A stretch of DNA of 64,000 nt from IMG/VR virus record IMGVR_UViG_3300021256_000097. One strand, written 5' to 3'. Positions 341 to 60,423 of the stretch are shown piece after piece (the first letter of the stretch is position 1; each line of letters begins with the position of its first letter). The position numbers and the translations under genes are program-made. The notes under the pieces are model-generated. The model was not told the DNA's origin and did no database searches. It worked only from the letters and a program-made list of their open reading frames with translations. This stretch comes from a virus.

Positions 341-898
341 ATGATAACATTGATATGTGGACCTATGTTTAGTGGTAAAAGTACTGAGTTAATCAGACAA
401 CTTGAACGTAAACATATTGCAGGCAAAAAAGTTCTTTATATACGACCTAATAAAGACTCTCGTAACTTTGTTGCAAGAGGCTATAAGGGAGACTTGAAAA
501 AACTGGCAAGTCTTGAGTATGTAAATGACTTCAGTAAAAACCATGATAAGTTGGTTGAGTGGATATCTGAGTATGATGCTATTTTTGTAGATGAATACTT
601 TATGATTGAAAACTGTGATCTATTATGTAAGGTTTTACCTGAAGAAGATCATAAGTGTGATATATACTTTGGTGGACTGCTTGCAACCGCAGAAAATGTT
701 ACTTGGCCCGAGGCAGTCAAAATATTGCCATATTGTGATGAAATCATCAAATTGAACGCAGTCTGTACAAATTGTGGTTCAGAACATGGTAATTATTCTC
801 TCTTTAAGGGGGAGAAGAAAGAAGCACTTGTTATAGGCGACAATACTTATATGGCCGTTTGTAGAAAGTGTTATGGCTTGCTTAAAGGACATTTATAA
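341..898 (+). CDS. tdk: Thymidine kinase
   Basis: ICGPMFSGKSTELIR P-loop typical of TK. C-terminal CTNCG...CRKC zinc ribbon. Confidence 0.9.
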   Translation: MITLICGPMFSGKSTELIRQLERKHIAGKKVLYIRPNKDSRNFVARGYKGDLKKLASLEYVNDFSKNHDKLVEWISEYDAIFVDEYFMIENCDLLCKVLPEEDHKCDIYFGGLLATAENVTWPEAVKILPYCDEIIKLNAVCTNCGSEHGNYSLFKGEKKEALVIGDNTYMAVCRKCYGLLKGHL

Positions 899-955: not shown

Positions 956-1186
956 ATGAATATTGTTTTATCTAAGAAGGATACGGATTATATTCGTAGC
1001 TTAGTTCCGAACAATATGGTAAGTCTCGTTAATCGTAGAATGCCTATTGGAGATGCTGATGTTGTACGACAGTATCTTGAAGGAGCATCCATCGAGAACG
1101 CCACAATCAACATTTTGTTGTATGGTAGCAAACTCGCCAAAAAAGTAAATTTTTATAATAGTCTTATCGGAGGACAACACAGATGA
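956..1186 (+). CDS. Hypothetical protein. The likely start is M14 of the track ORF 917..1186.
   Basis: GAGGA RBS lies ahead of ATG at 956. Its stop overlaps the start of the next gene. Confidence 0.4.
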   Translation: MNIVLSKKDTDYIRSLVPNNMVSLVNRRMPIGDADVVRQYLEGASIENATINILLYGSKLAKKVNFYNSLIGGQHR

Positions 1187-1818
1187 AAATCGGACAGTTT
1201 TTCCATCATCTCAAGAGAAAGGCAGAATCAGGCCTCGACAAACTCATTGACGCAGAGACACGCGTAAACACAGCTCTTCAGGACACAATGGAGAACCTTA
1301 ATAAGCAGGCAGAGAATGCTAAGAAACTTGAAGCTTCCCGCTTGGAATTTAAGGCTAACATGAAGAAGATTGAAAACGAGACAACTCGTTACAAGACAAA
1401 TTGTGAAGTCCTCAAGAATAAGGGTGTCGCTAAAGAGTCTGAGGAATTCCAGATTGCTGGTATGCAGTATATCGAGCATAAAAAGATGCTTGAAGACCTT
1501 AAGAGCCAGGAAAAGCAGATTGATGAAACTTGGGAGCGCGTTCAGAAAGCACTCAAGACTCTCAATTTGAATAAGAGCCTTCTCAATGCCAAGGCAGAAA
1601 TGCTCAAAACAAAGATCAACATGTACAAAGTTATGGAAAATATCACAGACTCAGGTATTGTTGATATCAACACAACATTTGCAGAAGTTGATGAAATGGT
1701 TAACAAGATGCAGTTCCAGAATGAGGCAAGCCGCACAGTTGACAACATTGTTAACGGCCGCGACACATCAAACGCTATGAAAATGGCAGAAGTTGATGAC
1801 CTCTTCGACTCGCTCTAA
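1183..1818 (+). CDS. PspA/IM30 (Vipp1)-like coiled-coil protein
   Basis: About 210 aa of all-helical heptad sequence. An N-terminal DKLIDAE...ALQD segment resembles the PspA N-terminal helix. A GGAGGA RBS is present. A terminator follows at 1852-1880. Confidence 0.45.
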   Translation: MKIGQFFHHLKRKAESGLDKLIDAETRVNTALQDTMENLNKQAENAKKLEASRLEFKANMKKIENETTRYKTNCEVLKNKGVAKESEEFQIAGMQYIEHKKMLEDLKSQEKQIDETWERVQKALKTLNLNKSLLNAKAEMLKTKINMYKVMENITDSGIVDINTTFAEVDEMVNKMQFQNEASRTVDNIVNGRDTSNAMKMAEVDDLFDSL

Positions 1819-1851
1819 TAAGCCAATAAAAGCAAACTAAGCTTTGTTATA

Positions 1852-1880
1852 AGACCCAGTATTTTGCTGGGTCTTTTTTA
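1852..1880 (+). terminator. Intrinsic terminator
   Basis: agacccag...ctgggtc hairpin followed by a T-run. Confidence 0.6.
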
Positions 1881-1972
1881 TACTTTAGTGAAGTTTTTAA
1901 CATATTATTTATATACATTTTATTATAAAAATATTTTAAAGTACAAATATTAAAATTTGTATTGGAGGAAAA

Positions 1973-4663
1973 ATGACAGGACTTACATCTAGTCAGGTTG
2001 AAGCTTCTCGTGCAAAACATGGAAGCAACGTTATTCCAGATTCAGAACCAACAACATTCTGGGCTGAATTTAAGGAAGCACTTGGTGATCCAATGATTAA
2101 GATTCTTATGGCAATTGCCGCTCTTATGATTGGATTGTTCGTAATTGGCGACAATTGTCTTCATCTTGTAAAAGGTATTGATCAGACATTGTTTGAACCA
2201 CTTGGTACTTTGATTGCCGTATTCTTGGTAGCAACAATCTCTGCTAAGACAGCTGTTGGTAGCGACCAGAAGTATCGCGACCTTAAATCACGTTCTGAAA
2301 AGGACAAGGTAAAGGTTCTTCGTGATGGTAAAGTTCAGGTAATTGATGCTGATGACATTGTAGTTGACGATATTGTGCTGCTTCAGTCTGGCGATAAGAT
2401 TCCAGCTGATGGTACTCTTATTGAAGGTAAGCTTAAGGTAAATAACGCAGCTTTGAATGGTGAGACAGAAGAAGCTAAAAAGACTGGCGATGAAAAGTCA
2501 CATATTCCTGAAAATCTTACTGGTGATACATTCGTTGATAAGTCATCACTTTTCCGTGGCGCAATTGTAACAGATGGGGAAGGTTACTTCCGTGTTGAAG
2601 CAGTTGGTCTTGCTACTATGATGGGTAAAATGGCTGAAGAGATGAATGGTGAACAAGTTGATTCACCACTTAAGGTTAAGCTCTCTAAGCTTGCTAACCA
2701 GATTTCAGTATTTGGCTATATTTCAGCTGTTGCAATTGTAGTTCTTTACCTTGTTATGGGTATTGTACATGCTGGTGGTTTTGCTCCATTCTTTACCAAC
2801 TGGCAGGGACTTGTTCATACTATCGTACAAGCCGCAAACCTTGCAATTTTGATTATTGTTTGTGCTGTTCCAGAGGGACTTCCATTGATGATTTCTTTGG
2901 TACTCATGCAGAATACATCTAAGATGCTTGACCATAATGTATTGGTTCGTAAAGCTCAGGGTATTGAAACAGCTGGTTCTTTGAACATTTTGTTCTCTGA
3001 TAAAACTGGTACAATTACAAAAGGACATCTTGAAGTAGTTGAACTTTTTGATGGCGCTGGTAAAGCAACAAAGCCTGCTGAAGCATTCCTTGAATGTGTT
3101 ACAAAGAATACACAGGCTATTATCGAAGGCGACAAAGTAATTGGTGGTAATATGACTGACCAGGCTTTGATGCGCTATGTACTTGAAAACAAGCTTACAG
3201 CCCCTGAAGTTTCTATTGTTAAAGAACAGGGATTCAACTCAGCTAACAAGTTTAGCCAGGCGCAGCTTTCAGATAAAAAGCTTGTATATAAGGGTGCTCC
3301 TGAACGTCTTCTTCCAAACTGTACAAAGTATCTTGATGCAGATGGAAATCTTCAGGATTTCGATGTTAAGCAGCTTGAGCCAAAGATTGACGAAATGGCA
3401 AATAAAGCTATGCGTATGCTCGCATTCGCTTACAAAGCTGACGCAACACTTAAAGAAGATAAAGTACAGGAAGAACTTGTACTTGTAGGTATTGCAGCTA
3501 TTCGTGATGATGTTCGTCCTGAAGCTCGTGATGCTATTGCTGAAGTAAATCGTGCTGGTATCCAGGTTGTAATGATTACTGGTGACCGTCTTGAGACAGC
3601 TGTTGCAATCGCAAAAGATGCTAATCTTCTTGATGAATCTGCAACAATCTTGACTGAAGAAAACAAAGATGAAATGCTTAAGCGTTACAAGGATACTGAA
3701 ACATCAACTGACCGTAAGGGTATCGCAGTTTCTTCTGCAATGCTTAGTACACTTTCAGATGATGAAATCAAGATTCTTGTATCTGGTATCCGTGTAATTG
3801 CGCGTGCTCTCCCAACAGATAAATCTCGTATGGTTCGTATCTGCCAGGAAATGGGACTTGTATGTGGTATGACAGGTGATGGTGTAAACGATTCTCCAGC
3901 TCTTAAAGCTGCTGATGTTGGTTTCGCTATGGGTTCTGGTACAGAAGCTGCAAAGGAAGCTGGCGATTTGGTTATCATTGATGATAACTTTAAGTCAATC
4001 AAAGACGCAATCTTGTTTGGTCGTACAATCTACCACAACATCTTGAAGTTTGTAAGATTCCAGCTTAGTATGAACGTACTTGCAGTACTTGCAACATTGT
4101 TAAGCCCTATCCTTGGTTTCAATGCGCCACTTACAGTTGTAATGTTGCTCTTTGTAAACCTCTGTTGTGATTCATTGGCATCACTTATGTTTGGTCCTGA
4201 ACCAGCTCTTGAAAAGTATATGGATGAAAAGCCACGTAGACGTACAGAATCTATCGTTAGTGGTAAGATGCTTACAAATATCGTTCTTACATCCGTATGG
4301 CTTGCTGCTGTAGGATTTGTAATGATGGCACGTAATGCTGGTACATTGTCAGTATATCAGATGCAGGCTATGTATTTTGTATTCTATATCTGGGGATCAT
4401 TGTTCAATGGATTCCAGTGTCGTTCAGATGGATTTGATATCTTCACTGGTATCAAAGAAAATAAGAACTTCATTAAGATTCCTTTGATTATTGTTGCTGC
4501 TCAGGCTGCAATCGTATGTATTGGTCTTATCCCAGCACTTGCTCCTGTAGGACTTGTATTTGGATGTGAACCAATTGCTGCTAATCTCTGGATTGAAGCA
4601 ATTGTTCTTGGTTTGACTGTACTTCCTATCGGCTGTATCACAAAGATTGGCCGTAAGCGCTAA
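1973..4663 (+). CDS. P-type cation-transporting ATPase (P2-type, Ca2+/Mg2+-like)
   Basis: DKTGTIT phosphorylation motif, MITGD, GDGVNDSPALKAADVGFAMG, and multiple TM segments. 896 aa. Confidence 0.9.
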   Translation: MTGLTSSQVEASRAKHGSNVIPDSEPTTFWAEFKEALGDPMIKILMAIAALMIGLFVIGDNCLHLVKGIDQTLFEPLGTLIAVFLVATISAKTAVGSDQKYRDLKSRSEKDKVKVLRDGKVQVIDADDIVVDDIVLLQSGDKIPADGTLIEGKLKVNNAALNGETEEAKKTGDEKSHIPENLTGDTFVDKSSLFRGAIVTDGEGYFRVEAVGLATMMGKMAEEMNGEQVDSPLKVKLSKLANQISVFGYISAVAIVVLYLVMGIVHAGGFAPFFTNWQGLVHTIVQAANLAILIIVCAVPEGLPLMISLVLMQNTSKMLDHNVLVRKAQGIETAGSLNILFSDKTGTITKGHLEVVELFDGAGKATKPAEAFLECVTKNTQAIIEGDKVIGGNMTDQALMRYVLENKLTAPEVSIVKEQGFNSANKFSQAQLSDKKLVYKGAPERLLPNCTKYLDADGNLQDFDVKQLEPKIDEMANKAMRMLAFAYKADATLKEDKVQEELVLVGIAAIRDDVRPEARDAIAEVNRAGIQVVMITGDRLETAVAIAKDANLLDESATILTEENKDEMLKRYKDTETSTDRKGIAVSSAMLSTLSDDEIKILVSGIRVIARALPTDKSRMVRICQEMGLVCGMTGDGVNDSPALKAADVGFAMGSGTEAAKEAGDLVIIDDNFKSIKDAILFGRTIYHNILKFVRFQLSMNVLAVLATLLSPILGFNAPLTVVMLLFVNLCCDSLASLMFGPEPALEKYMDEKPRRRTESIVSGKMLTNIVLTSVWLAAVGFVMMARNAGTLSVYQMQAMYFVFYIWGSLFNGFQCRSDGFDIFTGIKENKNFIKIPLIIVAAQAAIVCIGLIPALAPVGLVFGCEPIAANLWIEAIVLGLTVLPIGCITKIGRKR

Positions 4664-4685: not shown

Positions 4686-4721
4686 AAGCCAGTTTGAGAA
4701 ATCAGACTGGCTATTTTTTTG
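4686..4721 (+). terminator. Intrinsic terminator
   Basis: gccagtttgagaaatcagactggc hairpin plus a T-run. Confidence 0.6.
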
Positions 4722-4926
4722 GATATATTATGTTTTGGTTTACACAAGTATTAATCTTTATTGGTGGGATTACATTATTATTCTCAGTAAAAGTCAGTAA
4801 ACCTGAAGATTTAATCAGTACTTTAATTGTAGGCCTCTATTATTTCTTTGTTACTGTGCTTATACTCGAACCCGTACTAGCATTTATACTTATAAAGACT
4901 AAAATAATTTATCTATTTTTATAAAT

Positions 4927-4960
4927 AAAAAAACTCCCAAATTAGGGAGCTTTATTTTTT
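4927..4960. terminator. Bidirectional terminator between the + block and the - block
   Basis: aaaaaactccc aaatta gggag ttt...ttttt. Confidence 0.55.
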
Positions 4961-9817: not shown

Positions 9818-10987
9818 ATGCAATGGTCAATTTCAATGAGGCCTCATACCTTTAGTGATATGTATGGCTGTAAGAACATTAAAAGTTATTTTTATGGATT
9901 AAGAGCTAGTGGGCAGCCATACCCTAAGGCAGTTTTGTTTGAGGGTATTTTTGGTGGTGGAAAGACAACGTCCGCAAAGATTCTCGCACAGATGATTATG
10001 TGTACTAATCCAAAAGAAAATGGTGATCCATGTTGTGAGTGTGCTTCTTGCCAATCAATTATTGATGAAACCTTTGATATGGACTGTAAGCAGATTGATG
10101 GTGGTCAGGTAGGAAAAGATGAAGTAATCGATATTATTTCTAATTTTGCATCAAAGCCTTCTTATCGTGGAAACCATCAGAAAGTTGTAATTCTTGAAGA
10201 AGTTCAGGAATTATCAACAAAAGCAAAGAATGCTATATTAAAGATGCTTGAGAAACCACGTGAGAATTTCCATTTTATTTTTACATCAATGGAAACTCTT
10301 CCAGCGGGTGGTCTTAAATCACGTTGTGTTACTTTCCCATTTAAGCCAGCAGGTATGGGTGATATAATGTATTATCTTAAAGACTTGCTTGAGAAAACTG
10401 GAAATTGGGAAAATAAAGATATTATTGGTACAGCTGGTCCTGTTGAATTCTGGGGACCAGTTATTCAAGCCGTGGCTACAAATGCCTCAGGTTCTTATAG
10501 ACAAGCTACGCAGCTTATTGAGCAGTGTATTCATTGTAATTCATTTACAGCCGAAGAAATTCGTGATAATACTGGCTTAGTAGACATGAATACTTGGTAT
10601 GAGATGCTTACTGCGGTAATGGATGGACAAGCAAATGATCTTGTTCTTAACAATCTGCTCGAAGGTGACTATCAGTCAAACTTTAGCCTTGCATATAAGG
10701 TTGTTGCTGATGCAGTTACTTATGATACCTTCGGTAAGATTGTTAAACAGAATTCCTATTTCTTAGCGCAAGCTAAACAGCTTGCTTCACATAAGAACTT
10801 TCCATTACTCAGAGATACATATATGCATATCTCTGAGAATGGAGGAAAGTTTATTGCAAAATCGGATTATATTATTGAAATGTGTAAGCTTATTAAAGCT
10901 TGTCAGGCATCAAATTCAAAGCCTAATTTAACAAAGTTTGCAGAAGCAACTCCGGTTCGTGCAACTCGAACACCGGTTGGAGTGTAG
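9818..10987 (+). CDS. Clamp-loader AAA+ ATPase (DnaX/gp44-like)
   Basis: GGGKTT Walker A, CCECASCQ zinc module, and SRC motif (LKSRC). The start was moved to the ATG after the GGAGAAG RBS. Confidence 0.75.
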   Translation: MQWSISMRPHTFSDMYGCKNIKSYFYGLRASGQPYPKAVLFEGIFGGGKTTSAKILAQMIMCTNPKENGDPCCECASCQSIIDETFDMDCKQIDGGQVGKDEVIDIISNFASKPSYRGNHQKVVILEEVQELSTKAKNAILKMLEKPRENFHFIFTSMETLPAGGLKSRCVTFPFKPAGMGDIMYYLKDLLEKTGNWENKDIIGTAGPVEFWGPVIQAVATNASGSYRQATQLIEQCIHCNSFTAEEIRDNTGLVDMNTWYEMLTAVMDGQANDLVLNNLLEGDYQSNFSLAYKVVADAVTYDTFGKIVKQNSYFLAQAKQLASHKNFPLLRDTYMHISENGGKFIAKSDYIIEMCKLIKACQASNSKPNLTKFAEATPVRATRTPVGV

Positions 10988-27803: not shown

Positions 27804-28907
27804 ATGGACGAAATCAATGAAATCGTAAAAACATTGACAGAATGGCGGAATGCTTACTACAATGGTAGCCCAGTCGTATCAGACGCTGAGTTCGATGACC
27901 TTGAAGATAAGCTCAGACAGCTTGATCCAGATAACGAATACTTTAATGGAATTGGTGAAGATGAGCTGGATGGCTTTCCAAAAGCAAATCACACTATTCT
28001 TATGGGTAGCCAGGAAAAATGTAATACCGTTGAGGAAATTATCAAGAAGCTTAATCATTTTACTGGTAAAAAAGTTGCAATGCTTGTAGAGCCAAAATGT
28101 GATGGAATCAGTCTTGAATTGAACTACAAAGATGGAAAAGCAACAGCGCATATTACTCGTGGCAATGGTTATGTTGGTGATAACATTACTGTAAACGCTT
28201 CAAAAATGCAGGGTGTACCCGCGGGTATTCCTGTTTCGGAGGGTGTTGCTATTCGTGGCGAAATTATGCTGCTTCATTCTGATAAAGAAAAATATTTCCC
28301 AGAACTTAAGAACTGTCGTAATGGCGCTTCTGGTATTGCAAAGAATAAAGATGGAATCGGATGTGAGCATCTTACCGTTGTATGCTACGATTGCCAGTAT
28401 ACCGACGAGGATAAATCTTTCGGAACAGAAGCAAACAAACTCGACTTTCTTACTCAGTGTGGCTTTATGCGCGTAAATGCGGATATGGTTATTGCTGACT
28501 GTACAACTCCAGCTGGAATTAAAAAAGCTGCTGAAGATTTGATGGCAAAAATGAATGAGTTTACAATGACAGAACGTGAATATGACACTGATGGTGTTGT
28601 TGTTAAGCTCAACATTATCGATGACCACGATCTTCGTACAGAACTTCACCCAAAAACTCAGTGGGCCATTAAACCTGCTCGTGTAGAAGTTGAGACTACT
28701 CTTATCGATATTGAATGGAACATGACAAATGGTAGCCTGGTACCAGTAGCAATCTTTGAACCAGTTGTCCTGGATGGCGCAACAATCCAGCGTGCAAGCC
28801 TTGTAAATGTAGCAGAAATTGAACGTCTTGGCCTGTATATCGGCGCAAAGATTATGGTATCTCGAAGAAATCTTGTAATACCTAAAGTAGAGAGATTAGC
28901 TGCGTAA
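27804..28907 (+). CDS. ligA: NAD-dependent DNA ligase, N-terminal fragment (adenylation plus OB domain only)
   Basis: EPKCDGISLELNY (KxDG) and TRGNGYVGDNIT. It ends right after the OB-fold ...NLVIPKV, which matches LigA DVIPQV. Confidence 0.8.
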   Translation: MDEINEIVKTLTEWRNAYYNGSPVVSDAEFDDLEDKLRQLDPDNEYFNGIGEDELDGFPKANHTILMGSQEKCNTVEEIIKKLNHFTGKKVAMLVEPKCDGISLELNYKDGKATAHITRGNGYVGDNITVNASKMQGVPAGIPVSEGVAIRGEIMLLHSDKEKYFPELKNCRNGASGIAKNKDGIGCEHLTVVCYDCQYTDEDKSFGTEANKLDFLTQCGFMRVNADMVIADCTTPAGIKKAAEDLMAKMNEFTMTEREYDTDGVVVKLNIIDDHDLRTELHPKTQWAIKPARVEVETTLIDIEWNMTNGSLVPVAIFEPVVLDGATIQRASLVNVAEIERLGLYIGAKIMVSRRNLVIPKVERLAA

Positions 28908-30111: not shown

Positions 30112-30178
30112 AATACATAATTAGCTTATACTTTCCAATTTTATTCTACATATTATAGATACTTAAAGGAGGAAGAAA

Positions 30179-31008: not shown

Positions 31009-31839
31009 ATGAATATTAAAGATTTTATCAAGGCAAATCCAAATGCGCAGAAATGGAATCTTCCATCAGTCTGTCCAGTTTGTGGAGCTGATCTTGAACT
31101 TAATGAAAATCATACAGACATCGTTTGTACGAATGAGGGCTGCAAATCAAAGCTTATCGGACGCTTAAAAAAGTGGGCTGAGAAACTTGAAATCAGAGAG
31201 CTTGCTCCTACAACTCTGGAAAAGTTCATTGATGGTGGTCTGATTAAGAATGTATCTGACCTTTATAAAGCAGACTTTTCTGTTATTGCAAATTGGCCCG
31301 GATTTGGTGAGCGTTCCGCTGAAATCTACAAGAAAAACATTTCAAAAGCAACAACTGCAACTCTTGCTCAGTTTATCGCAGGTTATAATATTGGTGATGT
31401 TGGTGAAAAAGTTGTTCAGAAGATTATTGATGCAAAAGGTATCCGCGAACTTTCTGAATTTGCAAATCTCAGAGCAGAAGATCTTGTTTGTGAAGGCGCT
31501 GGTATTACAACCACAAGAAAGCTTATTGATGGAATCTCAGCTGTCTGGGATGATATGCTTGAAACATCTAAGTACGTAGCAATCGAAGTACCAGCAGAAA
31601 AAGATTCTAACAAGCTCGCTGGAATGGTATTCTGCTTCACAGGAAAAGCTTGTCTTCCACGTCCGCAGCTTCAGGCAATGGCGGAAGCAAATGGTGGAAA
31701 GTGTGCTTCTTCAGTATCTAAGAATACAACTTATCTTGTAACTGATGATACAGACACTGGATCAAGCAAGAACAAGAAAGCTGCTGAGCTTGGTATCCCT
31801 GTAATCACATCAGAACAGTTCTTGGAGCTTGTAAAATAA
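31009..31839 (+). CDS. ligA: NAD-dependent DNA ligase, C-terminal fragment (Cys4 zinc finger, HhH, BRCT)
   Basis: CPVCGADL...CTNEGC zinc finger, HhH region, and BRCT (FCFTGK...LVTDD). It has its own promoter at 30983-30992 and its own RBS. Confidence 0.8.
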   Translation: MNIKDFIKANPNAQKWNLPSVCPVCGADLELNENHTDIVCTNEGCKSKLIGRLKKWAEKLEIRELAPTTLEKFIDGGLIKNVSDLYKADFSVIANWPGFGERSAEIYKKNISKATTATLAQFIAGYNIGDVGEKVVQKIIDAKGIRELSEFANLRAEDLVCEGAGITTTRKLIDGISAVWDDMLETSKYVAIEVPAEKDSNKLAGMVFCFTGKACLPRPQLQAMAEANGGKCASSVSKNTTYLVTDDTDTGSSKNKKAAELGIPVITSEQFLELVK

Positions 31840-32825: not shown

Positions 32826-32902
32826 ATCGGTTTTTATACTCTGCATAAACTATAAACATATAATATATGTAAACTAAAACAATTACTTTGGAGGTAATAC
32901 TT

Positions 32903-33895
32903 ATGATTATGTCAACTGAAAAGAACAAAGTTCTTACAAATGCAAGTGACGCAGAGACAAGAAACTTTACAATTGCTTGTAACGAAAATATTCTTGATAC
33001 CTTGTCAAGACGTCTTTACACAAACATTCCACGTGCTGTAATTCGTGAGCTTGTGTCAAATGCAATCGATGCAAATATTGAAGCTGGTGTTGATGAAAAA
33101 ATCCTGCTTCACCTGCCAAGCGGACTTGAGCCAGAGTTTTATGTTGAAGACCATGGTATCGGTATGAATGAAGAGACAATCTACAACGTTTATACTCAGT
33201 ATGGTAACTCAACTAAGAATGGCTCAAACAATTGTATCGGTGGACTTGGACTTGGTTCAAAAACTCCATTCGCTTACACAGACCAGTTTTTCGTAATTTC
33301 TTCAAAAGATGGTGTTAAGAATACTTTTGTCTGCTTTAGAAATGAGCAGGGAGAAGCTTGTATCACTAAAATGGCATCTGAAGCATGTTCTGAAACTGGT
33401 ACAAAGGTATCATTCCCAGTAAAGGAAAATGACATTCGCAGCTTTACTAACGAGGCTGTCATAACTTTACTCTTCACTATGAAGATGCCAGAACTTGTTG
33501 GTGAAAAGGATCGTTTCTTAAGAGTAGCTGGTGTTGAGTCTCTTGAAGAATATGAAGCACTTCGTAAAGAACTTGCTGAGAACACTTACATCACAAATGA
33601 AAAGCTGCGTTCACTCATCAACTACTCGTCTTCTTATGGTAAACTTATCGTTGAAATGGGCGGAGTTGCTTACAAAGTAGATTCTAACGAAATCTTCGAA
33701 GATGGTAACTACAATCCTGTTCTGGAATATATCTGCAAGAAAAGCGATCTTCAGGTATTCCACTTGCCAATCGGCGCAGTTCAGATCCAGTCTTCTCGTG
33801 AAGCGCTCAACTACACACGTTTCACAAAAGAAGCTCTTACTAAGCTGTTTATTCAGGAATTCTTGGCAGATGCTAAGAAGGTAATTGCAGCTTAA
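32903..33895 (+). CDS. GHKL-superfamily ATPase (Hsp90-like N-domain)
   Basis: RELVSNAIDA (N box), EDHGIGM (G1) and GGLGLGSK (G2). Confidence 0.6.
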   Translation: MIMSTEKNKVLTNASDAETRNFTIACNENILDTLSRRLYTNIPRAVIRELVSNAIDANIEAGVDEKILLHLPSGLEPEFYVEDHGIGMNEETIYNVYTQYGNSTKNGSNNCIGGLGLGSKTPFAYTDQFFVISSKDGVKNTFVCFRNEQGEACITKMASEACSETGTKVSFPVKENDIRSFTNEAVITLLFTMKMPELVGEKDRFLRVAGVESLEEYEALRKELAENTYITNEKLRSLINYSSSYGKLIVEMGGVAYKVDSNEIFEDGNYNPVLEYICKKSDLQVFHLPIGAVQIQSSREALNYTRFTKEALTKLFIQEFLADAKKVIAA

Positions 33896-33970
33896 GTCAA
33901 GACAAGTCAGTTCAGTTAAAAAAATAATTTAAAAAAGTTGCGCAGATTTTATACTCTGCGCAGCATATTT

Positions 33971-33980
33971 ACATATTATA
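33971..33980 (+). promoter_or_regulatory. Promoter core ACATATTATA. The TATACT element lies 15 nt upstream, inside the loop of the preceding terminator hairpin.
   Basis: ttgcgcagattttatactctgcgcag hairpin, then the core motif. Confidence 0.6.
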
Positions 33981-35427: not shown

Positions 35428-35514
35428 GTTAAATAAGTTTTGAAAAAAGTTCGGAAGTTTTGTGCTTCCGAACTACTATAGACATATTATATATGTACAA
35501 TGGAGGTACACGTT

Positions 35515-36630
35515 ATGGAAAACAAAATGCGTTACATGGTAACATCGAATGGCTTGTCAGTATTCTTTGCTGGTAAGAAACCTTTTATGGTTGCAAAAGA
35601 CCATCCAAACTTCAATGCAATTCTTGAGGCTGTAACAGCTGATAAGGCTCCTTCTTATGAAGACATTGAAAAGTTGGCTGAGATCAAGAAGTCTTTGACA
35701 ACTCTGTCTTATGACAATGTTGAAATTGCTCTTGATGAAAATGACGAACTGATCTTGAAGCTTGACGGAAAAGTAACTGAAGTTCTTTCTTCTGCTCTTA
35801 TCGGCCGTTTGGTTGGTATGCTTCGTGAATCAGAAAGCCCACTCCGCAAGGCAGTATTCCAGTCATTCGCAAAGTTCATTTCGAACCTTTACAAGAATCC
35901 TTCTTACCGCTCTGTAAAGCAGATGTACGGCTTCCTTGAAGCAAACAACTTGCCAATCACTCAGAATGGTACATTCTTGGCTTACAAGAAAGTTCGCGGT
36001 GACTATTTTGACATTCATTCAGGCACATTCGACAATTCAGTTGGAAAAGTTGTTGAAATGCCTCGTAATCAGGTTGAAGACAACCCAGAAATCACTTGTT
36101 CACACGGCTTGCACGTTTGTTCATATGGTTACTTGAAACATTACTCATCAGCTTCTGATGACCGTATTGTAATCTGCGAAGTAAACCCAGCAGATGTTGT
36201 ATCAATTCCAACTGACTACGACAACGCAAAAATGCGTGTATGCAAGTACACTGTAGTTGATGAAGTTCCAAGCCACTTCACAGCACAGCTTTCATCTTAC
36301 GTTTACGGTAAGCATTCAGATGGCTGGATCAACGAGACTTACAAGAAGCTTGAAACACTCTTCAAGAAGTTCTTCGCTGTTGAGCATGTTGATTTTGATC
36401 ACTTGCCTAACACAATCAGCTATAACGACATGACACCACCAGTTATCGAAGACTTCTACAAAGAAGCAGAAGCTGTTGGCTTGAATGTTCCAACTAAGTT
36501 GAAGGACCTTTCTCTTGAAAAAGAATGTGTACCTACAATGAAGACAATGTTCCAGTGGCTCGCTAAGTACGACTCAAACTGGGTACGTCCTACAGCTGCT
36601 GACACAGAAGACGAAGCTGACGCTGAATAG
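35515..36630 (+). CDS. Hypothetical protein (372 aa)
   Basis: Promoter 35482-35491 and GGAGG RBS. The start was moved to the ATG after the RBS. Confidence 0.55.
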   Translation: MENKMRYMVTSNGLSVFFAGKKPFMVAKDHPNFNAILEAVTADKAPSYEDIEKLAEIKKSLTTLSYDNVEIALDENDELILKLDGKVTEVLSSALIGRLVGMLRESESPLRKAVFQSFAKFISNLYKNPSYRSVKQMYGFLEANNLPITQNGTFLAYKKVRGDYFDIHSGTFDNSVGKVVEMPRNQVEDNPEITCSHGLHVCSYGYLKHYSSASDDRIVICEVNPADVVSIPTDYDNAKMRVCKYTVVDEVPSHFTAQLSSYVYGKHSDGWINETYKKLETLFKKFFAVEHVDFDHLPNTISYNDMTPPVIEDFYKEAEAVGLNVPTKLKDLSLEKECVPTMKTMFQWLAKYDSNWVRPTAADTEDEADAE

Positions 36631-39603: not shown

Positions 39604-39676
39604 TCGGGAGTCGGCAAGCGGTAAGCCCCCGGCTTTTGGTGCCGGTATTCCACAGGTTCGAATCCTGTCTCCCGAA
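39604..39676 (+). tRNA. tRNA-Gln (anticodon TTG). CCA is not encoded.
   Basis: Acceptor tcgggag/ctcccga. Anticodon stem ccggc/gccgg with loop ttTTGgt. T-arm acagg-ttcgaat-cctgt. Confidence 0.7.
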
Positions 39677-39834
39677 CAAGGCCAATAACAGGCCGTATAA
39701 TAACATATTTACATAAAAAAGTTTTCAACTTTTTTCTCTCCTAAGAGCCCTATAATTTTTATAGGGCTCTTTTTTACTTTCTATAGTATTGTAGACATAT
39801 TATATATACAAAATAAATATATGGAGGCTTAAAA

Positions 39835-40788
39835 GTGAATAAGCGAATTATTAAATGGACAGCACTTGGTGTTATTGGAATTTTGGTTCTTATAACCGGG
39901 CTTAATTGTTGTTCTGTAATTGATCCTACAGAAGAGGCTGTAACTGTAACATTGGGTTCTCTTGGTAATGATAACATTGGTCAGGGATTGCATTTCAAAG
40001 CGCCTTATGTGCAGACATTCCGCAAGATTGACAAAAACCCTATTGAATATAAGAAGTCAATTCCGCTCGGTGAAAAGGCTCTTATTACTAAAGATGGCCA
40101 GTCACTTGGTGTTGATTTTACTATGACATGGAAATATACTGATGGTTCAGCAGTACTAGTAGCTAAGCGATTCAGTGATAAAAACTCTTTATATAATTTG
40201 ATTTCAAATCCTTGTAAACAGGCGTTTAAGTCAGAAATTGGTAAGCTTGAAGCACTTGAGTTTGTAGGTAAGCAGGATGAAGTAATAAGTAAAGTAATGG
40301 ATCGTGTTACTGCTGAAACGGCCCGTTTGCAGTTGCCTATTGAGATTCTTAATATTGTAATTGAAAATATTAACTGGGACCCTGGTTTTGAGGCTCAGAT
40401 TAAGAAAACTGCTGAGATGCGTGCGCAGGTAGAACAGGCTAATCAGGCTGCTGACCAGGCTGCTGCTATTGCCCAGAAGAAAGTACGTGAAGCCAAAGCT
40501 GATGCTGACGCGGCTCTTGAAAAGAAACGTATGACTGAAGCAGAAGCTGAAGCAGAAGCTAATGCGGAATTGATTAAAGCACAGAAAGCTGCTGATGCAA
40601 AGCGCGTCGAAGCTGATGCTCTTGCCTATTACAATGCAAAAGTTGCGCAGAACTATCAGGTAGAAATTAAGCTTAAAGAACTTGAAATTGAGCTTGAGCG
40701 TGCTAAGAAATGGGATGGACGACAGGTACCTGAATATATTCCATTGACAGCTGCTGGTGGTATTGTAAATCTTCCGGAGAAGAAATAG
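39835..40788 (+). CDS. SPFH/band-7 (HflK/C, stomatin)-like membrane protein
   Basis: N-terminal TM segment, SPFH-like core, and an Ala/Glu-rich coiled coil (AEAEAEAEANAE). Confidence 0.55.
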   Translation: MNKRIIKWTALGVIGILVLITGLNCCSVIDPTEEAVTVTLGSLGNDNIGQGLHFKAPYVQTFRKIDKNPIEYKKSIPLGEKALITKDGQSLGVDFTMTWKYTDGSAVLVAKRFSDKNSLYNLISNPCKQAFKSEIGKLEALEFVGKQDEVISKVMDRVTAETARLQLPIEILNIVIENINWDPGFEAQIKKTAEMRAQVEQANQAADQAAAIAQKKVREAKADADAALEKKRMTEAEAEAEANAELIKAQKAADAKRVEADALAYYNAKVAQNYQVEIKLKELEIELERAKKWDGRQVPEYIPLTAAGGIVNLPEKK

Positions 40789-45574: not shown

Positions 45575-45659
45575 GTATCAGTGGTCGAGAGGTCGAAGAC
45601 AGCAGACTGTTAATCTGCCGAGCGAAAGCCCACCACAGGTTCGAACCCTGTCTGATACG
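45575..45659 (+). tRNA. tRNA with anticodon GTT (Asn-like) and an atypically long 16-nt variable region. Identity is uncertain.
   Basis: Acceptor gtatcag/ctgatac. Anticodon stem gcaga/tctgc with loop ctGTTaa. T-arm acagg-ttcgaac-cctgt. Confidence 0.5.
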
Positions 45660-46151
45660 CTAAAAATCCAGGATCTAATACCTGGTTAGAAGTGTATTAG
45701 AGACCTAATATGAGCGGATGGTTTTACCAGATGAAACTTGTATTAGAAGGCTATTACTTTACAAATACTGTACGCTTGTGTCAGTCCTTGCGTTAACGAT
45801 GCGCAGGTATAACGGCTGGGAAGGTTCGTAGAAAGCCTAAGCTTAGAGTACTATGCTCAATACCGTAAGTCCGTCGCCTCAAGTTTGATTCTACCTATTA
45901 TATGATAAGGGTCGACTGACAGCCTACGGAAGTTTAGGGATTGATAGTAGGTGACCAATTATACGAGTCGTAATCCCTTTATAAATAACCATTATATGGA
46001 AGAGTCCTTAGGGAATGGCCTACCGAAATGGTAACAATGGGAATTGAAGTACTATTGGGGAGTGAACCGATTATAGGAACATTGTAGTATAGTGGTATTT
46101 ATAAACGATTTTTGTTAGTTATGTTAGTTTTATACTTTATTTGGTAAGCTA

Positions 46152-46164: not shown

Positions 46165-46428
46165 ATGAAATTATGCGTATAATATGAAAGTTGAAATTTC
46201 ATAAAATACGCTAATATAAATATAACAGAAAATGCTGTAGGATTAGGTTTACTTAGATTCTATTTTTGGTTTAGAAAAAACAAAGAGCCTATCCGATTTT
46301 TCGCTTTTCTTAATTTTGGAATTATATGTAAGCCGACTCCCTATTACCAAATCGGGACCCCTCCTTGTCGGATTCATATGAGACATAGTTACGGGAAGCA
46401 TGCGAATGCTTCCTTTTTTTTTATTTAT
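46165..46428 (+). ncRNA. Candidate small ncRNA, about 260 nt from promoter to terminator, immediately upstream of the Ro60-like gene (possible Y-RNA-like RNA)
   Basis: The unit is bounded by the promoter and the gggaagcatgcgaatgcttcc+T9 terminator. An internal 13-bp hairpin gcgtataatatgaaa/tttcataaaatacgc is present. No ORF or RBS. Confidence 0.35.
46393..46424 (+). terminator. Intrinsic terminator
   Basis: gggaagcat gcga atgcttcc plus T9. Confidence 0.7.
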
Positions 46429-46471
46429 AAAATTATTTAATAAACTTCAGTTTGAAGTGAGGAGAAATAAA

Positions 46472-51297: not shown

Positions 51298-51663
51298 GGG
51301 CCTGACTTTGGAATCGATTGGTATCAGAGTAGTCTATGTATCATGCACAGTGGTTATTGTACCCTAAAAGCAACGTAAGTAATCGACGCACAGAACGAAT
51401 ATGCAATGGCTGCGTAAGCAACCTAGCATCTAGAGACTTCGAGAGCTCTAGCGCTTGAACCAACAGATGTAGGTGGTATGGTTTTAAGTGTGGCTACTAC
51501 CTTCTAGGAAGCAGTGAGAGGCGGAGCGAGAGCTTGTAACTGTAACGACAATACTAGGGCAGAATCCGGTTGCCGGTCCCGAATCGAAAAAAGGCTTAAG
51601 CATGTAGAGAAGTACATATTCAAAAAGGTAAGCAAGACGAGAGTTCGAAACTCTCCAGGTCCA
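51298..51663 (+). ncRNA. ssrA: tmRNA (SsrA), standard one-piece form. The tag reading frame is (D)AQNEYAMAA-stop at 51385/51388-51417.
   Basis: The 5' end GGGCCTGACTTTGGAATCGATTGG matches tmRNA GGGGCTGATTCTGGATTCGACGGG. The conserved TAAGCATGTAG motif is present. The 3' tRNA-like end is gagag-ttcgaaa-ctctc plus acceptor caggtcc, which pairs with the 5' gggcctg. The ORF gca cag aac gaa tat gca atg gct gcg taa is present. Confidence 0.8.
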
Positions 51664-51689
51664 GTTCGGTAAATATAACTAATTTAAGT

Positions 51690-53995: not shown

Positions 53996-54697
53996 GTGTT
54001 TGAAGAAAAAACTGATTATGAGCTTTTCGCTCAGTACATTAAAAACCCAGGAGCAAATGAGGGAGACAAGAAAGCTGCTCTAACTCAACTCTGGATGCGT
54101 TATGAGGCGCTTACACACAAGATGGGACACGTACTTGAAGCGAGACGCAACAAAGGTAATTTCTACGGACTAGAAACAGAGACTTACTATTCCGATTTTT
54201 ATGATGCTTTCTTGAAGGCAGTTGATGGTTTGCAGCTCAGTAAAATTAAAACTGATCCAAAGACTTGGAAGTTCTGGATTCAGTATAATGGCTACTTGCG
54301 TTCTGCTAATCGTGATAAGATTAATGATTATTGCCGCATAACAAAGCATGAAAGACCAATTACGGTTACAAATGAAGATGGAGAGGAAGTCAGCATTGCA
54401 GATTTATGTGGTTCAGAATATTCTGCTACAATTGAAGATGATTACTTTAAGAGTGAAGAATCAGTAGTTCTTAAAGAAGCAATCAAAAATGCTTATTCAA
54501 AGTTTTCCGATAAGCAGAAGAAGATTTGGTCAATGCGTGAGGGTGGCGATACCTTTACAGCAATAGCTAAATCAATGAATGTATCATCTAGCTCCATTAA
54601 ATATCAGATGAATCGCATTAAAGACGTTTTACGCAGTGAGTTAAACGAGTCAAATAAGCGACATAACACTGAAATTCGTCCTGCTTGCTTAATGTAA
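53996..54697 (+). CDS. Sigma-70-family sigma factor (regions 2 and 4; small, FliA/ECF-like)
   Basis: FLKAVDGLQLSK...WKFWIQYNGYLRSA (region 2.2-2.3-like) and the C-terminal HTH FTAIAKSMNVSSSSIKYQMNRIKDVL (region 4). GTG start after AGGAG. Confidence 0.7.
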   Translation: MFEEKTDYELFAQYIKNPGANEGDKKAALTQLWMRYEALTHKMGHVLEARRNKGNFYGLETETYYSDFYDAFLKAVDGLQLSKIKTDPKTWKFWIQYNGYLRSANRDKINDYCRITKHERPITVTNEDGEEVSIADLCGSEYSATIEDDYFKSEESVVLKEAIKNAYSKFSDKQKKIWSMREGGDTFTAIAKSMNVSSSSIKYQMNRIKDVLRSELNESNKRHNTEIRPACLM

Positions 54698-58388: not shown

Positions 58389-58480
58389 AAATAAATAAGT
58401 TTGTCAAGCTGTAGAAGTTTTTATACTTCTACAGTTTAGTTTACATATTATAAATACAAAACAAATAAATGGAGGCAATT

Positions 58481-60369: not shown

Positions 60370-60423
60370 GATTTATACTTCTACAGATTTATTTACATAT
60401 TATAAATACAAACGGAGGTAATT

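What the first reader, a model, noticed from the sequence alone, without database searches (positions are those of the whole stretch)
1973..4663. Phage-encoded P-type cation ATPase
A full-length (896 aa) P2-type ATPase with DKTGT, TGD and GDGxND motifs sits between pspA-like and tdk. It is transcribed in the phage context, with a similar AT-rich promoter variant and the same base composition. Ion-pump auxiliary genes are very rare in phages. It may alter host Ca2+/Mg2+ homeostasis during infection.
Basis: partly seen in the sequence, partly recalled or inferred. Interest (0 to 1): 0.55.

Follow-up and report, generated by a model that had tools for sequence, protein, structure and literature searches.

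The report
Calcium pump gene in huge phage
A very large gut bacteriophage carries its own intact, selectively maintained calcium-export pump (a PMCA-type P-type ATPase) driven by a phage promoter; this kind of phage gene was first described in 2025-26, so this is a new example from a different phage lineage, not a new kind of thing.

Summary
ORF 1973-4663 (+) encodes an intact 896-aa P-type ATPase. It passes NCBIfam's equivalog cut-off for PMCA-type Ca2+-ATPases. All catalytic motifs and the single Ca2+ site (E301, N729, D733) are present.

It is a phage gene, not host flank:
- Phage genes lie on both sides.
- An 89%-identical copy sits in the same synteny on a 579-kb scaffold, with dN/dS 0.15.
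- Its GC3 matches the other phage genes.
- It has its own terminator-bounded unit behind a phage-specific bipartite promoter motif, shared with rIIA and nine other sites.

The kind is already published. Ca2+ P-type ATPases were reported in Jug phages and 81 other huge gut phages (Sci Adv 2026). This window is a different lineage: 36% GC, and an ATPase of the Clostridia/Treponema type rather than the Bacteroides type.

Three findings here were not found in the papers searched:
- A PspA/IM30-like gene precedes the pump in every phage lineage examined (directly, except for one inserted gene in L013).
- The pump subfamily comes from a bacterial TelA-TerD-TerD-TerD-ATPase operon.
- All phage copies form one 100%-supported clade.

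The role inferred is Ca2+ export from the infected cell as part of a membrane and Ca2+ stress module. Transport itself is untested.

The parts
341..898 (+). Thymidine kinase (tdk). It is the first gene of the conserved block tdk - small ORF - PspA-like - ATPase.
   Evidence: Pfam TK E=4.3e-31. The same order is seen in L001, L002 and L013.
956..1186 (+). Conserved 76-aa ORF of unknown function.
   Evidence: Called as a 76-aa gene in L001 and L002. It is 71% identical between the two lineages, with dN/dS 0.23. No Pfam or NCBIfam hit (scanned as the longer TTG-start form 917-1186).
1183..1818 (+). 211-aa PspA/IM30-like helical protein, the conserved upstream partner of the ATPase in huge phages.
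   Evidence: Homologues of 39-81% identity lie upstream of the ATPase in L002, L013, L011/L014, L008, L006 and L007 (directly, except in L013, where a DUF7487 gene intervenes). PF04012 matches 12 of 16 family members, best E=7e-7; the window copy scores 21.8 bits, below the 33.9 cut-off. The AF2 model (pLDDT 84.8) shows a long helical hairpin plus two helices. Vipp1/PspA structures are among the top Foldseek hits, but no hit reaches E<1e-3. It is not TelA (hhalign probability 0.4%).
1851..1875 (+). Intrinsic-terminator-like hairpin followed by a T-run, closing the PspA-like unit.
   Evidence: 11-bp stem with 5 GC pairs, followed by TTTTATACTT.
1878..1912 (+). Phage-specific bipartite promoter-like motif (TTATAC-N16-ACATATTATTTAT) in front of the ATPase.
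   Evidence: 11 exact occurrences of TTATAC-N16-ACATATWAT, all on the + strand with the same spacing, against 0.02 expected. The core motif occurs 58 times against 13.3 expected. L002 has a perfect core copy at the equivalent place, 9931-9943.
1965..1970 (+). Ribosome-binding site GGAGGA, 2 nt before the ATG.
   Evidence: Read directly from the sequence.
1973..4663 (+). PMCA-type (P2B-like) Ca2+-translocating P-type ATPase, 896 aa.
   Evidence: TIGR01517 scores 530.6 against a cut-off of 507.05. Pfam domains are listed and motifs. The AF2 model's best PDB matches are PMCA, ACA8, SPCA1 and LMCA1, with E down to 5.5e-48. dN/dS is 0.15 against L002.
4687..4712 (+). Intrinsic-terminator-like hairpin followed by a T-run, 24 nt after the ATPase stop codon.
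   Evidence: 11-bp stem followed by ATTTTTTTGG. L002 appears to have a hairpin and T-run at the equivalent place, read by eye from the alignment.
4730..4924 (+). Small conserved membrane-protein ORF (64 aa) with two hydrophobic segments. Any functional link to the pump is speculative.
   Evidence: It is conserved in position and sequence in L002 (58 aa, 45-51% identity, shared motif VSKPxDxI..IVGxYYF). The gene callers behind L001 and L002 did not call it.
4930..4953 (.). Bidirectional terminator hairpin between the ATPase unit and the convergent minus-strand block.
   Evidence: Terminator-like sites on both strands. The hairpin sequence is conserved in L002.

Best explanation
The gene encodes a functional PMCA-type (P2B-like, single-site) Ca2+ pump that belongs to a huge gut bacteriophage. 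During infection it is transcribed as its own unit. A phage-specific promoter of the same class as rIIA and nine other sites in the window drives it, and intrinsic terminators bound it. The protein inserts into the host cytoplasmic membrane and uses ATP to export Ca2+ from the cytoplasm, probably in exchange for H+ as in LMCA1 and PMCA.

The gene descends from a bacterial subfamily that sits in TelA-TerD-TerD-TerD-ATPase operons of gut Clostridia. It was captured by huge phages and inherited or exchanged among them. In phages it is always paired with a PspA/IM30-like protein and often still followed by three TerD (Ca2+-binding) genes.

The most likely role is to keep cytosolic Ca2+ low and the membrane energised during a long infection cycle, as part of a membrane and Ca2+ stress module.

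Shown: gene integrity, family, phage ownership, selection, promoter class and the gene associations. Inferred: the transported ion, the direction of transport and the benefit to the phage.
For: - **Family.** TIGR01517 (PMCA-type) scores above its equivalog cut-off; all other P-type classes score far below theirs. The best sequence matches in PDB are ACA8, LMCA1 and PMCA1/2. The AF2 model's best PDB matches are PMCA, ACA8, SPCA1 and LMCA1.
- **Residues.** D343 in DKTGT, E301 in PEGL (M4), N729 and D733 (M6), KGAPE, MITGD and GDGVND are conserved. The SERCA E771 position (M5) is Ala, and the PMCA-Gln (ACA8-aligned) position in M8, which from memory corresponds to SERCA E908, is Ser. So only site II is predicted, as in PMCA and LMCA1.
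- **Phage ownership.** rIIA/rIIB, clamp loader, DnaB, primase, sigma factor and a homing endonuclease lie downstream. An SNF2 helicase and a dUTPase lie upstream of the window start. Synteny is kept on a 579-kb scaffold.
- **Selection and amelioration.** dN/dS is 0.15. GC3 is 0.278, like most of the phage genes measured, against 0.71 in the nearest cellular homologue.
- **Expression signals.** Terminators lie at 1851-1875 and 4687-4712, with the bipartite promoter motif at 1878-1912. L002 keeps a perfect core-motif copy.
- **Module.** A PspA-like partner lies upstream in 7 of 7 distinct phage loci. TerD x3 follows the pump in L013, L008, L006 and L007. TerD is adjacent in 28 of 34 bacterial loci with >=50% identity. 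The operon TelA-TerDx3-ATPase is seen in Lachnospiraceae A4.
- **Independent literature.** Jug-phage Ca2+ ATPase genes are highly transcribed in human gut metatranscriptomes (PMC12880540).
Against: - No transport or phosphorylation assay exists for this protein or for any member of its subfamily that I could find.
- The actuator motif is NGET instead of the canonical TGES. This is shared by all bacterial and phage members of the subfamily, so it is not a phage-specific defect, but its kinetic consequences are unknown.
- TIGR01517 is passed by only about 24 bits.
- The window lineage lacks TerD genes next to the pump and anywhere in the 64 kb, so the 'module' is incomplete here.
- The PspA assignment is weak by sequence for the window copy, which scores below the Pfam cut-off. 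It is not significant by fold search.
- No capsid or terminase gene lies within the window. The 'phage' call therefore rests on rII, replication genes, the promoter motif and relatives in IMG/VR.
Confidence: 0.78

Rival explanations
1. The protein is an active P2-type pump, but its physiological substrate is not Ca2+. Candidates are Mn2+ (as in SPCA/PMR1-type pumps), Mg2+, Na+ or H+. In that case the phage manipulates a different ion.
For: Specificity within the P2 class cannot be read with certainty from sequence. TIGR01517 is passed only narrowly (530.6 against 507.05). The subfamily has an unusual NGE[A/S/T] actuator motif and is uncharacterised. SPCA1a in Ca and Mn states gives the highest TM-scores among the Ca2+-pump matches to the model. 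JGI labels some members 'magnesium-transporting ATPase'.
Against: The MgtA, H+, Na/K and PMR1 models all score far below their cut-offs. The site-II ligands E301, N729 and D733 are those of Ca2+ pumps. The tight genomic linkage to TerD proteins in bacteria and phages fits Ca2+; from memory of the Klebsiella TerD structure, not checked here, TerD domains bind Ca2+. The JGI label is probably a generic orthology name.
Confidence: 0.12
2. The pump works as predicted, but it was kept for a defensive or competitive purpose rather than general homeostasis. Two versions are possible. It could neutralise Ca2+ influx and depolarisation caused by host abortive-infection systems or by damage at injection. 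Or it could exclude superinfecting phages. In either case it would act together with the PspA-like protein, SPFH/Band-7 and rIIA/rIIB.
For: The strictly conserved pairing with a PspA/IM30-like membrane-repair protein is found only in phage loci. The same window encodes rIIA/rIIB and an SPFH protein. The pump shares its promoter class with rIIA. From textbook knowledge of T4, rII genes counter membrane-depolarising Rex exclusion.
Against: This rests purely on association. No Ca2+-dependent abortive-infection system is identified for the unknown host. The TerD-ATPase linkage is inherited from bacteria, so it need not reflect a phage-specific function.
Confidence: 0.25
3. The region is host DNA: a flank, an assembly chimera or a mis-binned bacterial contig. 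The ATPase would then be an ordinary bacterial gene.
For: P-type ATPase hits in the deposited 'phage' collection are, where context could be inspected, host contamination or unannotated fragments. One 89%-identical fragment is labelled Erysipelotrichaceae MAG in NCBI. One contig that carries the gene is 940 kb long, larger than any phage reported in the papers read here.
Against: Phage-like genes flank the gene on both sides for at least 10 kb upstream and 59 kb downstream. Independent assemblies share the synteny. GC3 and the promoter motif match the phage. Relatives sit on IMG/VR viral contigs of 308 kb and 355 kb.
Confidence: 0.02
4. The gene is a decaying or neutral passenger with no function for the phage.
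For: TerD partners have been lost next to the gene in this lineage. The actuator motif is non-canonical.
Against: The 896-codon frame is intact. dN/dS is 0.15 at dS 0.5. All catalytic residues are invariant across phage clades that have diverged to 60% identity. A dedicated promoter, RBS and terminator are conserved in the sister lineage. The gene is retained in at least four diverged phage clades.
Confidence: 0.03

Closest known systems
[quoted passage not shown]
   Same: Full-length Ca2+-type P-type ATPase with 10 TM helices and DKTGT, encoded by huge gut phages and acquired from gut bacteria. Those authors propose that it exports Ca2+ to remodel the host cytoplasm. Their paper also notes TerD and pspA-like genes in the Jug genomes.
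   Different: Jug phages have 27-30% GC and 360-402 kb genomes. Their pump is closest to Bacteroides/Phocaeicola, and a 77-91-aa gene directly upstream is co-transcribed with it. Here the window is about 36% GC and the pump belongs to a Clostridia/Treponema-type clade. The upstream gene is a 211-aa PspA-like protein separated by a terminator. Relatives sit on contigs of 579-940 kb, above the 200-447 kb range listed in that paper. Whether this lineage is among the paper's '81 other' phages could not be checked, because table S24 is not held.
PMCA-type ATPase of the TelA-TerD-TerD-TerD-ATPase operons of gut Clostridia (e.g. Lachnospiraceae bacterium A4, L042)
   Same: Same subfamily at 55-58% identity, with the same NGE[A/S/T] actuator variant, the same Ca2+-site residues and the same linkage to TerD triplets.
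   Different: The bacterial copies have TelA upstream and no PspA-like partner, with the TerD genes usually upstream. Phage copies have a PspA-like gene upstream and the TerD genes downstream or absent. The phage copies form a separate clade with 100% support.
LMCA1 (Listeria monocytogenes Ca2+-ATPase; PDB 6zhf, 6zhh, 9euq), together with PMCA1/2 and plant ACA8
   Same: Closest solved structures by sequence (E 1e-90 to 7e-96) and by fold (E about 1e-45 to 5e-48). They share a single Ca2+ site (site II only). Like LMCA1, the phage protein has no large regulatory tail.
   Different: Identity is only 28-29%. The actuator motif is TGES in those proteins and NGET here. Eukaryotic PMCA and ACA carry calmodulin-binding autoinhibitory tails that are absent here. 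The Arg that occupies site I in LMCA1 aligns with Ser here.
Chlorovirus Ca2+-transporting ATPase (Bonza et al. 2010, PMC3052600; cited in PMC6163359 and PMC12880540)
   Same: A virus-encoded P-type Ca2+ pump. It is the only viral one shown experimentally to be functional.
   Different: It comes from a eukaryotic giant virus with a eukaryote-type pump. In the viral structure library only giant-virus P-type ATPases match the model, at 13-25% identity.

Membership tests
P-type ATPase superfamily (HAD-IC) | DKTGT motif carrying the phosphorylated Asp | tested here: met
   FSDKTGTITKG with D343, invariant in all 24 homologues aligned (and in the 29-sequence alignment).
P-type ATPase superfamily (HAD-IC) | Hinge and nucleotide motifs KGAPE, (M)ITGD and GDGxND | tested here: met
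   All are present and conserved. The Pfam Hydrolase and Cation_ATPase domains score above their cut-offs.
P-type ATPase superfamily (HAD-IC) | TGES actuator (dephosphorylation) motif | tested here: inconclusive
   The motif reads NGET. The Gly-Glu core is kept, but Thr is replaced by Asn and Ser by Thr. The same NGE[A/S/T/P] variant occurs in every bacterial and phage member of the subfamily, so it is a subfamily trait rather than decay.
P2-type ATPase | Ten transmembrane helices (M1-M10) with the N- and C-terminal cation-ATPase domains | tested here: met
   Cation_ATPase_N and Cation_ATPase_C are present. The AF2 helices and hydropathy peaks are compatible with the ten-helix layout, with M8 seen only in the AF2 model. 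Full-length structural matches to PMCA and SERCA.
PMCA-type (P2B) Ca2+-ATPase | Score above the curated equivalog cut-off of TIGR01517 | tested here: met
   530.6 bits against a cut-off of 507.05. The SERCA, PMR1, MgtA, H+ and Na/K models are all far below their cut-offs.
PMCA-type (P2B) Ca2+-ATPase | Ca2+ site II ligands (Glu of PEGL in M4; Asn and Asp in M6), with no acidic site-I residues in M5 and M8 | tested here: met
   E301, N729 and D733 are present. The M5 position is Ala and the M8 position is Ser.
PMCA-type (P2B) Ca2+-ATPase | Calmodulin-binding autoinhibitory tail (eukaryotic PMCA and ACA) | tested here: not met
   The protein ends within a few residues of M10 and has only about 40 residues before M1. 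This is as in bacterial homologues and LMCA1. The protein is therefore 'PMCA-type' in the NCBIfam sense, not a eukaryote-like regulated PMCA.
PMCA-type (P2B) Ca2+-ATPase | ATP-driven, vanadate-sensitive Ca2+ transport | not testable with these tools
   This needs biochemistry.
Phage auxiliary (host-derived) gene | Embedded in a phage genome with phage genes on both sides, and conserved in related phages | tested here: met
Phage auxiliary (host-derived) gene | Phage-type expression signals and ameliorated composition | tested here: met
   Bipartite promoter motif, 11 occurrences against 0.02 expected, one at 1878-1908. GC3 of 0.278 matches most of the phage genes measured.
Jug phage clade (PMC12880540) | GC 27-30%, genome 360-402 kb, pump closest to Bacteroides/Phocaeicola, and a 77-91-aa co-transcribed gene directly upstream | tested here: not met
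   The window is about 36% GC. Contigs are 579-940 kb. No Bacteroides homologue appears among the top 120 proteins or the top 80 genome loci. The upstream neighbour is a 211-aa PspA-like gene followed by a terminator.
PspA/IM30/ESCRT-III family (for the partner gene 1183-1818) | Match to PF04012 above the gathering score; helical-hairpin fold | tested here: inconclusive
   The window copy scores 21.8 bits against a cut-off of 33.9, but the alignment spans the full length. 12 of 16 family members match, best E 7e-7. The AF2 topology fits. Vipp1 structures are among the top Foldseek hits, but none reaches E<1e-3. A profile search of PDB sequences found nothing.

The most novel reading that the evidence does not exclude
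Huge gut phages of several lineages carry a dedicated envelope and Ca2+ stress module: a PspA/IM30-like protein, a PMCA-type pump and, in some lineages, a TerD triplet. The pump-TerD part would have been captured once from a Clostridial TelA-TerD-ATPase operon, and the bacterial TelA replaced by a phage-specific PspA-like protein. The module would actively hold down cytosolic Ca2+ and repair the membrane during infection, for example to defeat Ca2+-influx or depolarisation-based abortive infection. The cellular 'Treponema-like' copies nested inside the phage clade would then be phage-to-bacterium transfers. Together this would give a first physiological function to the long-enigmatic TerD/TelA 'tellurite resistance' genes, as a Ca2+-handling system.
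Probability: 0.25. Interest if true: 0.65.

Novelty: new member of a known kind. Interest (0 to 1): 0.4.

Why it matters
Ion pumps are unusual cargo for viruses of bacteria. A phage that installs its own Ca2+ exporter implies that bacterial cytosolic Ca2+ matters for the outcome of infection, and bacterial Ca2+ signalling is itself poorly understood.

The phenomenon was published in 2025-26 for Jug phages, so the headline is not new. This locus adds three things.

- It shows the trait in a separate, apparently larger phage lineage with a Clostridia/Treponema-type pump.
- It shows a strict phage-specific pairing with a PspA-like membrane-repair protein.
- It traces the pump to bacterial TelA-TerD-ATPase operons.

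Together these make a concrete, testable link between TerD 'tellurite-resistance' proteins, Ca2+ export and phage infection.

Tried and rejected
- **Near-identical DNA in deposited phages.** None found. The phage DnaB has no relative above 29% identity there, so the phage could not be named.
- **tblastn of the pump against deposited phages.** It gave 127 records, but none is a credible phage example. All are below 60% identity. The best is an unannotated 4.5-kb faecal contig. Many are short, unannotated contigs from multi-contig 'Listeria phage' and 'Enterococcus phage' assemblies, or bacterial chromosome records. The only annotated phage-named record I inspected (Streptococcus phage MissG2) is plainly host chromosome: UvrA, then a Mg riboswitch and MgtA, then Spx and RuvX.
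- **TGES to NGET as phage-specific degeneration.** Rejected, because the variant is universal in the bacterial subfamily.
- **The partner gene as a truncated TelA** (the gene at that position in bacteria). Rejected: hhalign probability 0.4% and no TelA Pfam hit.
- **Confirmation of PspA by PDB sequence profile and Foldseek.** No significant hit, so the assignment stays moderate.
- **TerD genes in the window.** None found by tblastn.
- **The conserved inverted repeat just upstream of the RBS (TACAAAT-N6-ATTTGTA, 1943-1962) as a recurring motif.** It does not recur above chance.
- **Table S24 of PMC12880540**, which lists the other phages with the pump. It is not held, so overlap with this lineage is unknown.
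- **The 940-kb contig.** It could not be inspected beyond the 10-kb flanks.
Full report
**1. The observation**

The window has a single uninterrupted ORF at 1973-4663 on the + strand, with an ATG start and 896 codons. Pfam finds all five P2-type domains above their cut-offs: Cation_ATPase_N, E1-E2_ATPase, the HAD hydrolase core, the Cation_ATPase N-domain and Cation_ATPase_C.

One detail is wrong. The gene does not lie between a pspA-like gene and tdk. The order is tdk (341-898), a 76-aa ORF (956-1186), the PspA-like gene (1183-1818), the ATPase, a small hydrophobic ORF, and then a block of convergent minus-strand genes.

**2. Which pump it is**

- NCBIfam places the protein in TIGR01517, 'calcium-translocating P-type ATPase, PMCA-type', at 530.6 bits against a curated cut-off of 507.05.
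- Every other class (PMR1, SERCA, H+, Na/K, MgtA, heavy-metal, Kdp) scores far below its own cut-off.
- The best solved relatives by sequence are plant ACA8, Listeria LMCA1 and mammalian PMCA1/2.
- An AlphaFold model built on 29 homologues (pLDDT 77) matches PMCA, ACA8, SPCA1, SERCA2b and LMCA1, with Foldseek E-values down to 5.5e-48.

At residue level the following are conserved: the phosphorylated Asp (D343), the PEGL glutamate of M4 (E301), the M6 Asn/Asp pair (N729, D733), and KGAPE, MITGD and GDGVND. The M5 position equivalent to SERCA E771 is Ala, and the M8 position that holds Gln in ACA8 (from memory the SERCA E908 equivalent) is Ser. Only Ca2+ site II is therefore predicted, as in PMCA and LMCA1. 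There is no calmodulin-binding tail.

The one oddity is the actuator motif, which reads NGET instead of TGES. All bacterial and phage members of the subfamily carry NGE[A/S/T/P], so this is a subfamily trait and not phage-specific decay.

**3. Whether it is really a phage gene**

*Surrounding genes.* The rest of the window encodes a clamp loader, a DnaC-like loader, DnaB, primase, rIIA and rIIB. It also has a split NAD-ligase, a homing endonuclease, a sigma factor, a ClpP-like protease, Ro60/TROVE and an SPFH protein, plus many ORFans. It also carries two tRNAs and a tmRNA that passes Rfam's gathering score.

*Independent assemblies.* The exact protein is found on a 71.7-kb contig. That contig extends 10 kb upstream of the window and carries an SNF2 helicase and a dUTPase there. 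An 89%-identical copy lies on a 578,814-bp scaffold in the same order: dUTPase, SNF2 helicase, TK, 76-aa ORF, 211-aa gene, ATPase, then the PD-(D/E)XK nuclease block.

*Selection.* Between these two lineages the pump has dN/dS = 0.15 at dS = 0.51. Its neighbours have dS of about 1.0-1.9 or are saturated, with dN/dS of 0.09-0.23.

*Composition.* GC3 is 0.278, within the 0.21-0.34 range of most of the other window genes measured. The nearest cellular homologue has GC3 0.71.

*Transcription unit.* A terminator hairpin at 1851-1875 closes the PspA-like gene. A GGAGGA ribosome-binding site precedes the ATG. Another terminator lies at 4687-4712.

The core ACATATTATAWAT occurs 58 times (up to 2 mismatches) against 13.3+-3.5 expected, almost always on the coding strand. 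The full bipartite form TTATAC-N16-ACATATWAT occurs 11 times with identical spacing, all on the + strand, against 0.02 expected. One copy is at 1878-1908 in front of the pump, and others precede rIIA and the gene after it. The 579-kb relative has a perfect core copy at the equivalent position.

The host-flank or chimera hypothesis is therefore rejected.

**4. Relatives and origin**

Close homologues fall into four groups.
- (a) The window clade, 81-100% identical, on many metagenomic contigs.
- (b) A sister clade at about 60%, also on huge-phage contigs (393 kb and others), next to helicases and ORFans.
- (c) A high-GC clade at about 60% on contigs up to 475 kb, including two IMG/VR viral contigs of 308 kb and 355 kb.
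- (d) A 63-66% clade that includes a copy in an ordinary chromosomal context of a Treponema MAG and one in an ambiguous plasmid-like or phage-like context.

They are almost all gut Clostridia: Lachnospiraceae, Ruminococcus, Flavonifractor, Anaerostipes and Oscillibacter.

In a bootstrapped NJ tree rooted on Enterococcus:
- clades a-d together have 100% support against the Lachnospiraceae/Oscillospiraceae group;
- a+b has 78% support;
- a+b+d has 94% support.

This fits one capture from Clostridia-like bacteria followed by spread among huge phages. The Treponema-like copies would then be either the proximate donor or recipients. NJ on protein distances is a limited method, so this remains inference.

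**5. Gene associations**

A 211-223-aa helical protein lies upstream of the pump in every phage locus examined: the window, L002, L013, L011/L014, L008, L006 and L007, at 39-81% identity. It is directly adjacent except in L013, where a DUF7487 gene intervenes. In IMG/VR it occurs only on the two contigs that also carry the pump, and next to it.

Twelve of sixteen members of this family match Pfam PspA_IM30, with a best E-value of 7e-7. The window copy scores 21.8 bits, below the cut-off. The AlphaFold model shows a long helical hairpin plus two shorter helices. Vipp1/PspA structures are among the top Foldseek hits, but none is significant. 'PspA/IM30-like' is therefore the best assignment, and only a moderately supported one.

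Three TerD genes follow the pump in clades b (L013) and c (L008, L006, L007). The window has no TerD gene in its 64 kb.

The TerD link is ancestral. Of 34 bacterial loci with at least 50% identity, 28 have TerD genes beside the pump, usually three upstream on the same strand. In Lachnospiraceae bacterium A4 the operon reads TelA-TerD-TerD-TerD-ATPase-HAD.

The phage partner is not a TelA derivative (hhalign probability 0.4%), and no bacterial locus had a PspA-like hit. The pump subfamily thus belongs to a bacterial TelA/TerD cluster, and phages replaced TelA with a PspA-like protein.

**6. Mechanism**

Shown:
- an intact PMCA-type pump gene under purifying selection;
- its own phage promoter and terminators;
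- linkage to PspA-like and, in relatives, TerD genes.

Inferred from the established mechanism of P2B pumps and LMCA1:
- the protein inserts into the host cytoplasmic membrane;
- it cycles through E1-Ca, E1P, E2P and E2;
- it exports one Ca2+ per ATP, with H+ counter-transport.

The benefit to the phage is inferred from context. The window also encodes a PspA-like protein, an SPFH protein and rIIA/rIIB, and relatives encode Ca2+-binding TerD proteins. This suggests a role in keeping cytosolic Ca2+ low and the membrane energised through a long, demanding infection. It might also counter defences that act through the membrane.

**7. Comparison with what is known**

- A 2018 survey of viral transporters listed P-type ATPases only for chloroviruses and mimiviruses, and none for phages (PMC6163359).
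- In the BFVD viral structure library only giant-virus P-type ATPases match the model.
- A preprint of August 2025, published in Science Advances in February 2026 (PMC12880540), reports Ca2+-translocating P-type ATPases as 'not detected previously in phages'. It finds them in 60-74% of Jug phages (360-402 kb, 27-30% GC, Bacteroides/Phocaeicola hosts) and in 81 other huge and 4 smaller gut phages. Those pumps are most similar to Bacteroidaceae or Bacillota, and they are highly transcribed in vivo.

The kind is therefore known. This window is not a Jug phage, judged by GC content, contig size, pump phylogeny and upstream gene. It may or may not be among the '81 other' phages, because that table is not held.

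Neither the PspA-like-pump pairing nor the bacterial TelA-TerDx3-ATPase origin turned up in the papers I could search.

**8. Verdict**

This is a real, correctly recognised phage-encoded PMCA-type Ca2+ pump. It is a new member of a recently described kind, and the module and origin findings above are additions to what is published. Transport activity, ion specificity, the host and the true genome size (579 kb, or the 940-kb contig) remain untested.

Noticed in passing
window 51298-51666 (+): The phage encodes a tmRNA. ARAGORN predicts the tag peptide DAQNEYAMAA, and Rfam RF00023 scores 54.1 bits against a gathering score of 47. tRNA-Gln(TTG) lies at 39604-39677 and tRNA-Asn(GTT) at 45575-45660.
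   Followed up: partly
window-wide; e.g. 1878-1908, 30126-30156, 32834-32864, 33949-33979, 58421-58451, 60373-60403, 62906-62936: A phage-specific bipartite promoter-like motif, TTATAC-N16-ACATATWAT(A)WAT, has fixed spacing. There are 11 exact copies against 0.02 expected, all on the + strand. The core occurs 58 times against 13.3 expected. The window also encodes a sigma factor (53996-54697). Which polymerase or sigma factor reads the motif is unknown.
   Followed up: partly
window 27804-28907 and 31009-31839 (+): The NAD-dependent DNA ligase is split into an N-terminal ORF (phrog_3869 positions 8-380) and a C-terminal ORF (positions 377-653). About 2.1 kb separates them and contains other ORFs. 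This suggests an intron, intein or mobile insertion, or a two-subunit ligase.
   Followed up: no
window 39835-40788 (+), 32888-33895 (+), 35500-36630 (+): Further membrane-associated functions lie in the same window: an SPFH/Band-7 protein, rIIA and rIIB. The rIIA-like and rIIB-like ORFs are short (335 and 376 aa) compared with the PHROG profiles, and a 470-aa ORFan lies between them.
   Followed up: no
window 46400-47917 (+): A Ro60/TROVE-domain protein (Pfam E=2e-10; PHROG 'RNA-binding protein') lies just downstream of the tRNA-Asn. Cellular Ro60 pairs with Y RNAs. No Y RNA passed the Rfam gathering thresholds.
   Followed up: no
window 4730-4924 (+); L002 12768-12941: A small ORF (64 aa in the window, 58 aa in L002) with two hydrophobic segments lies directly after the pump's terminator. 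It is conserved between the two phage lineages (45-51% identity) but was not called by the gene callers. It could be a small membrane regulator of the pump, by analogy with sarcolipin or MgtR-type peptides. That idea is pure speculation.
   Followed up: partly
window 1183-1818 (+): The PspA-like gene has GC3 = 0.505, far above the other window genes measured (mostly 0.21-0.34, at most 0.41). It is also elevated in L002 (0.44) and L011 (0.46). Synonymous divergence from L002 is saturated (pS 0.77). This may be codon bias of a highly expressed gene.
   Followed up: partly
window 1973-4663 compared with neighbouring genes: Synonymous divergence of the pump between the window and the 579-kb relative (dS 0.51) is at least two-fold lower than that of all flanking genes (dS about 1.0-1.9 or saturated). 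This suggests either more recent exchange of the pump between the two phage lineages or unusual synonymous constraint.
   Followed up: no
L016-L049 (bacterial loci); L042 13-5655: Gut Clostridia carry a conserved TelA-TerD-TerD-TerD-PMCA-type ATPase operon; 28 of 34 loci with at least 50% identity have adjacent TerD genes. I found no paper that discusses a link between 'tellurite resistance' TerD/TelA genes and a Ca2+ pump.
   Followed up: partly
contigs carrying the exact protein; L002 scaffold: The exact pump protein is recorded on a 940,564-bp contig, and the 89% relative on a 578,814-bp scaffold_1. If these are single phage genomes they are larger than any phage genome mentioned in the papers read here (up to 447 kb). 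Concatemer or chimeric assembly is not excluded.
   Followed up: no
L003 10001-12664 (Treponema MAG); L009 (RepA_C/ParA/NadABC/Tubulin_2/HSP70 context): A cellular 'Treponema-like' clade of the pump (63-66% identity) nests with the phage clades at 94% bootstrap support and has no TerD neighbours. It may be a phage-to-bacterium transfer or a clue to the host. L009 looks like a plasmid or another giant element.
   Followed up: partly
L008 3057-4760 and 5602-6804: The high-GC huge phage that carries PspA-like-ATPase-TerDx3 also has an intein-containing DNA methylase and a TnpB/Cas12f-like gene near the module.
   Followed up: no
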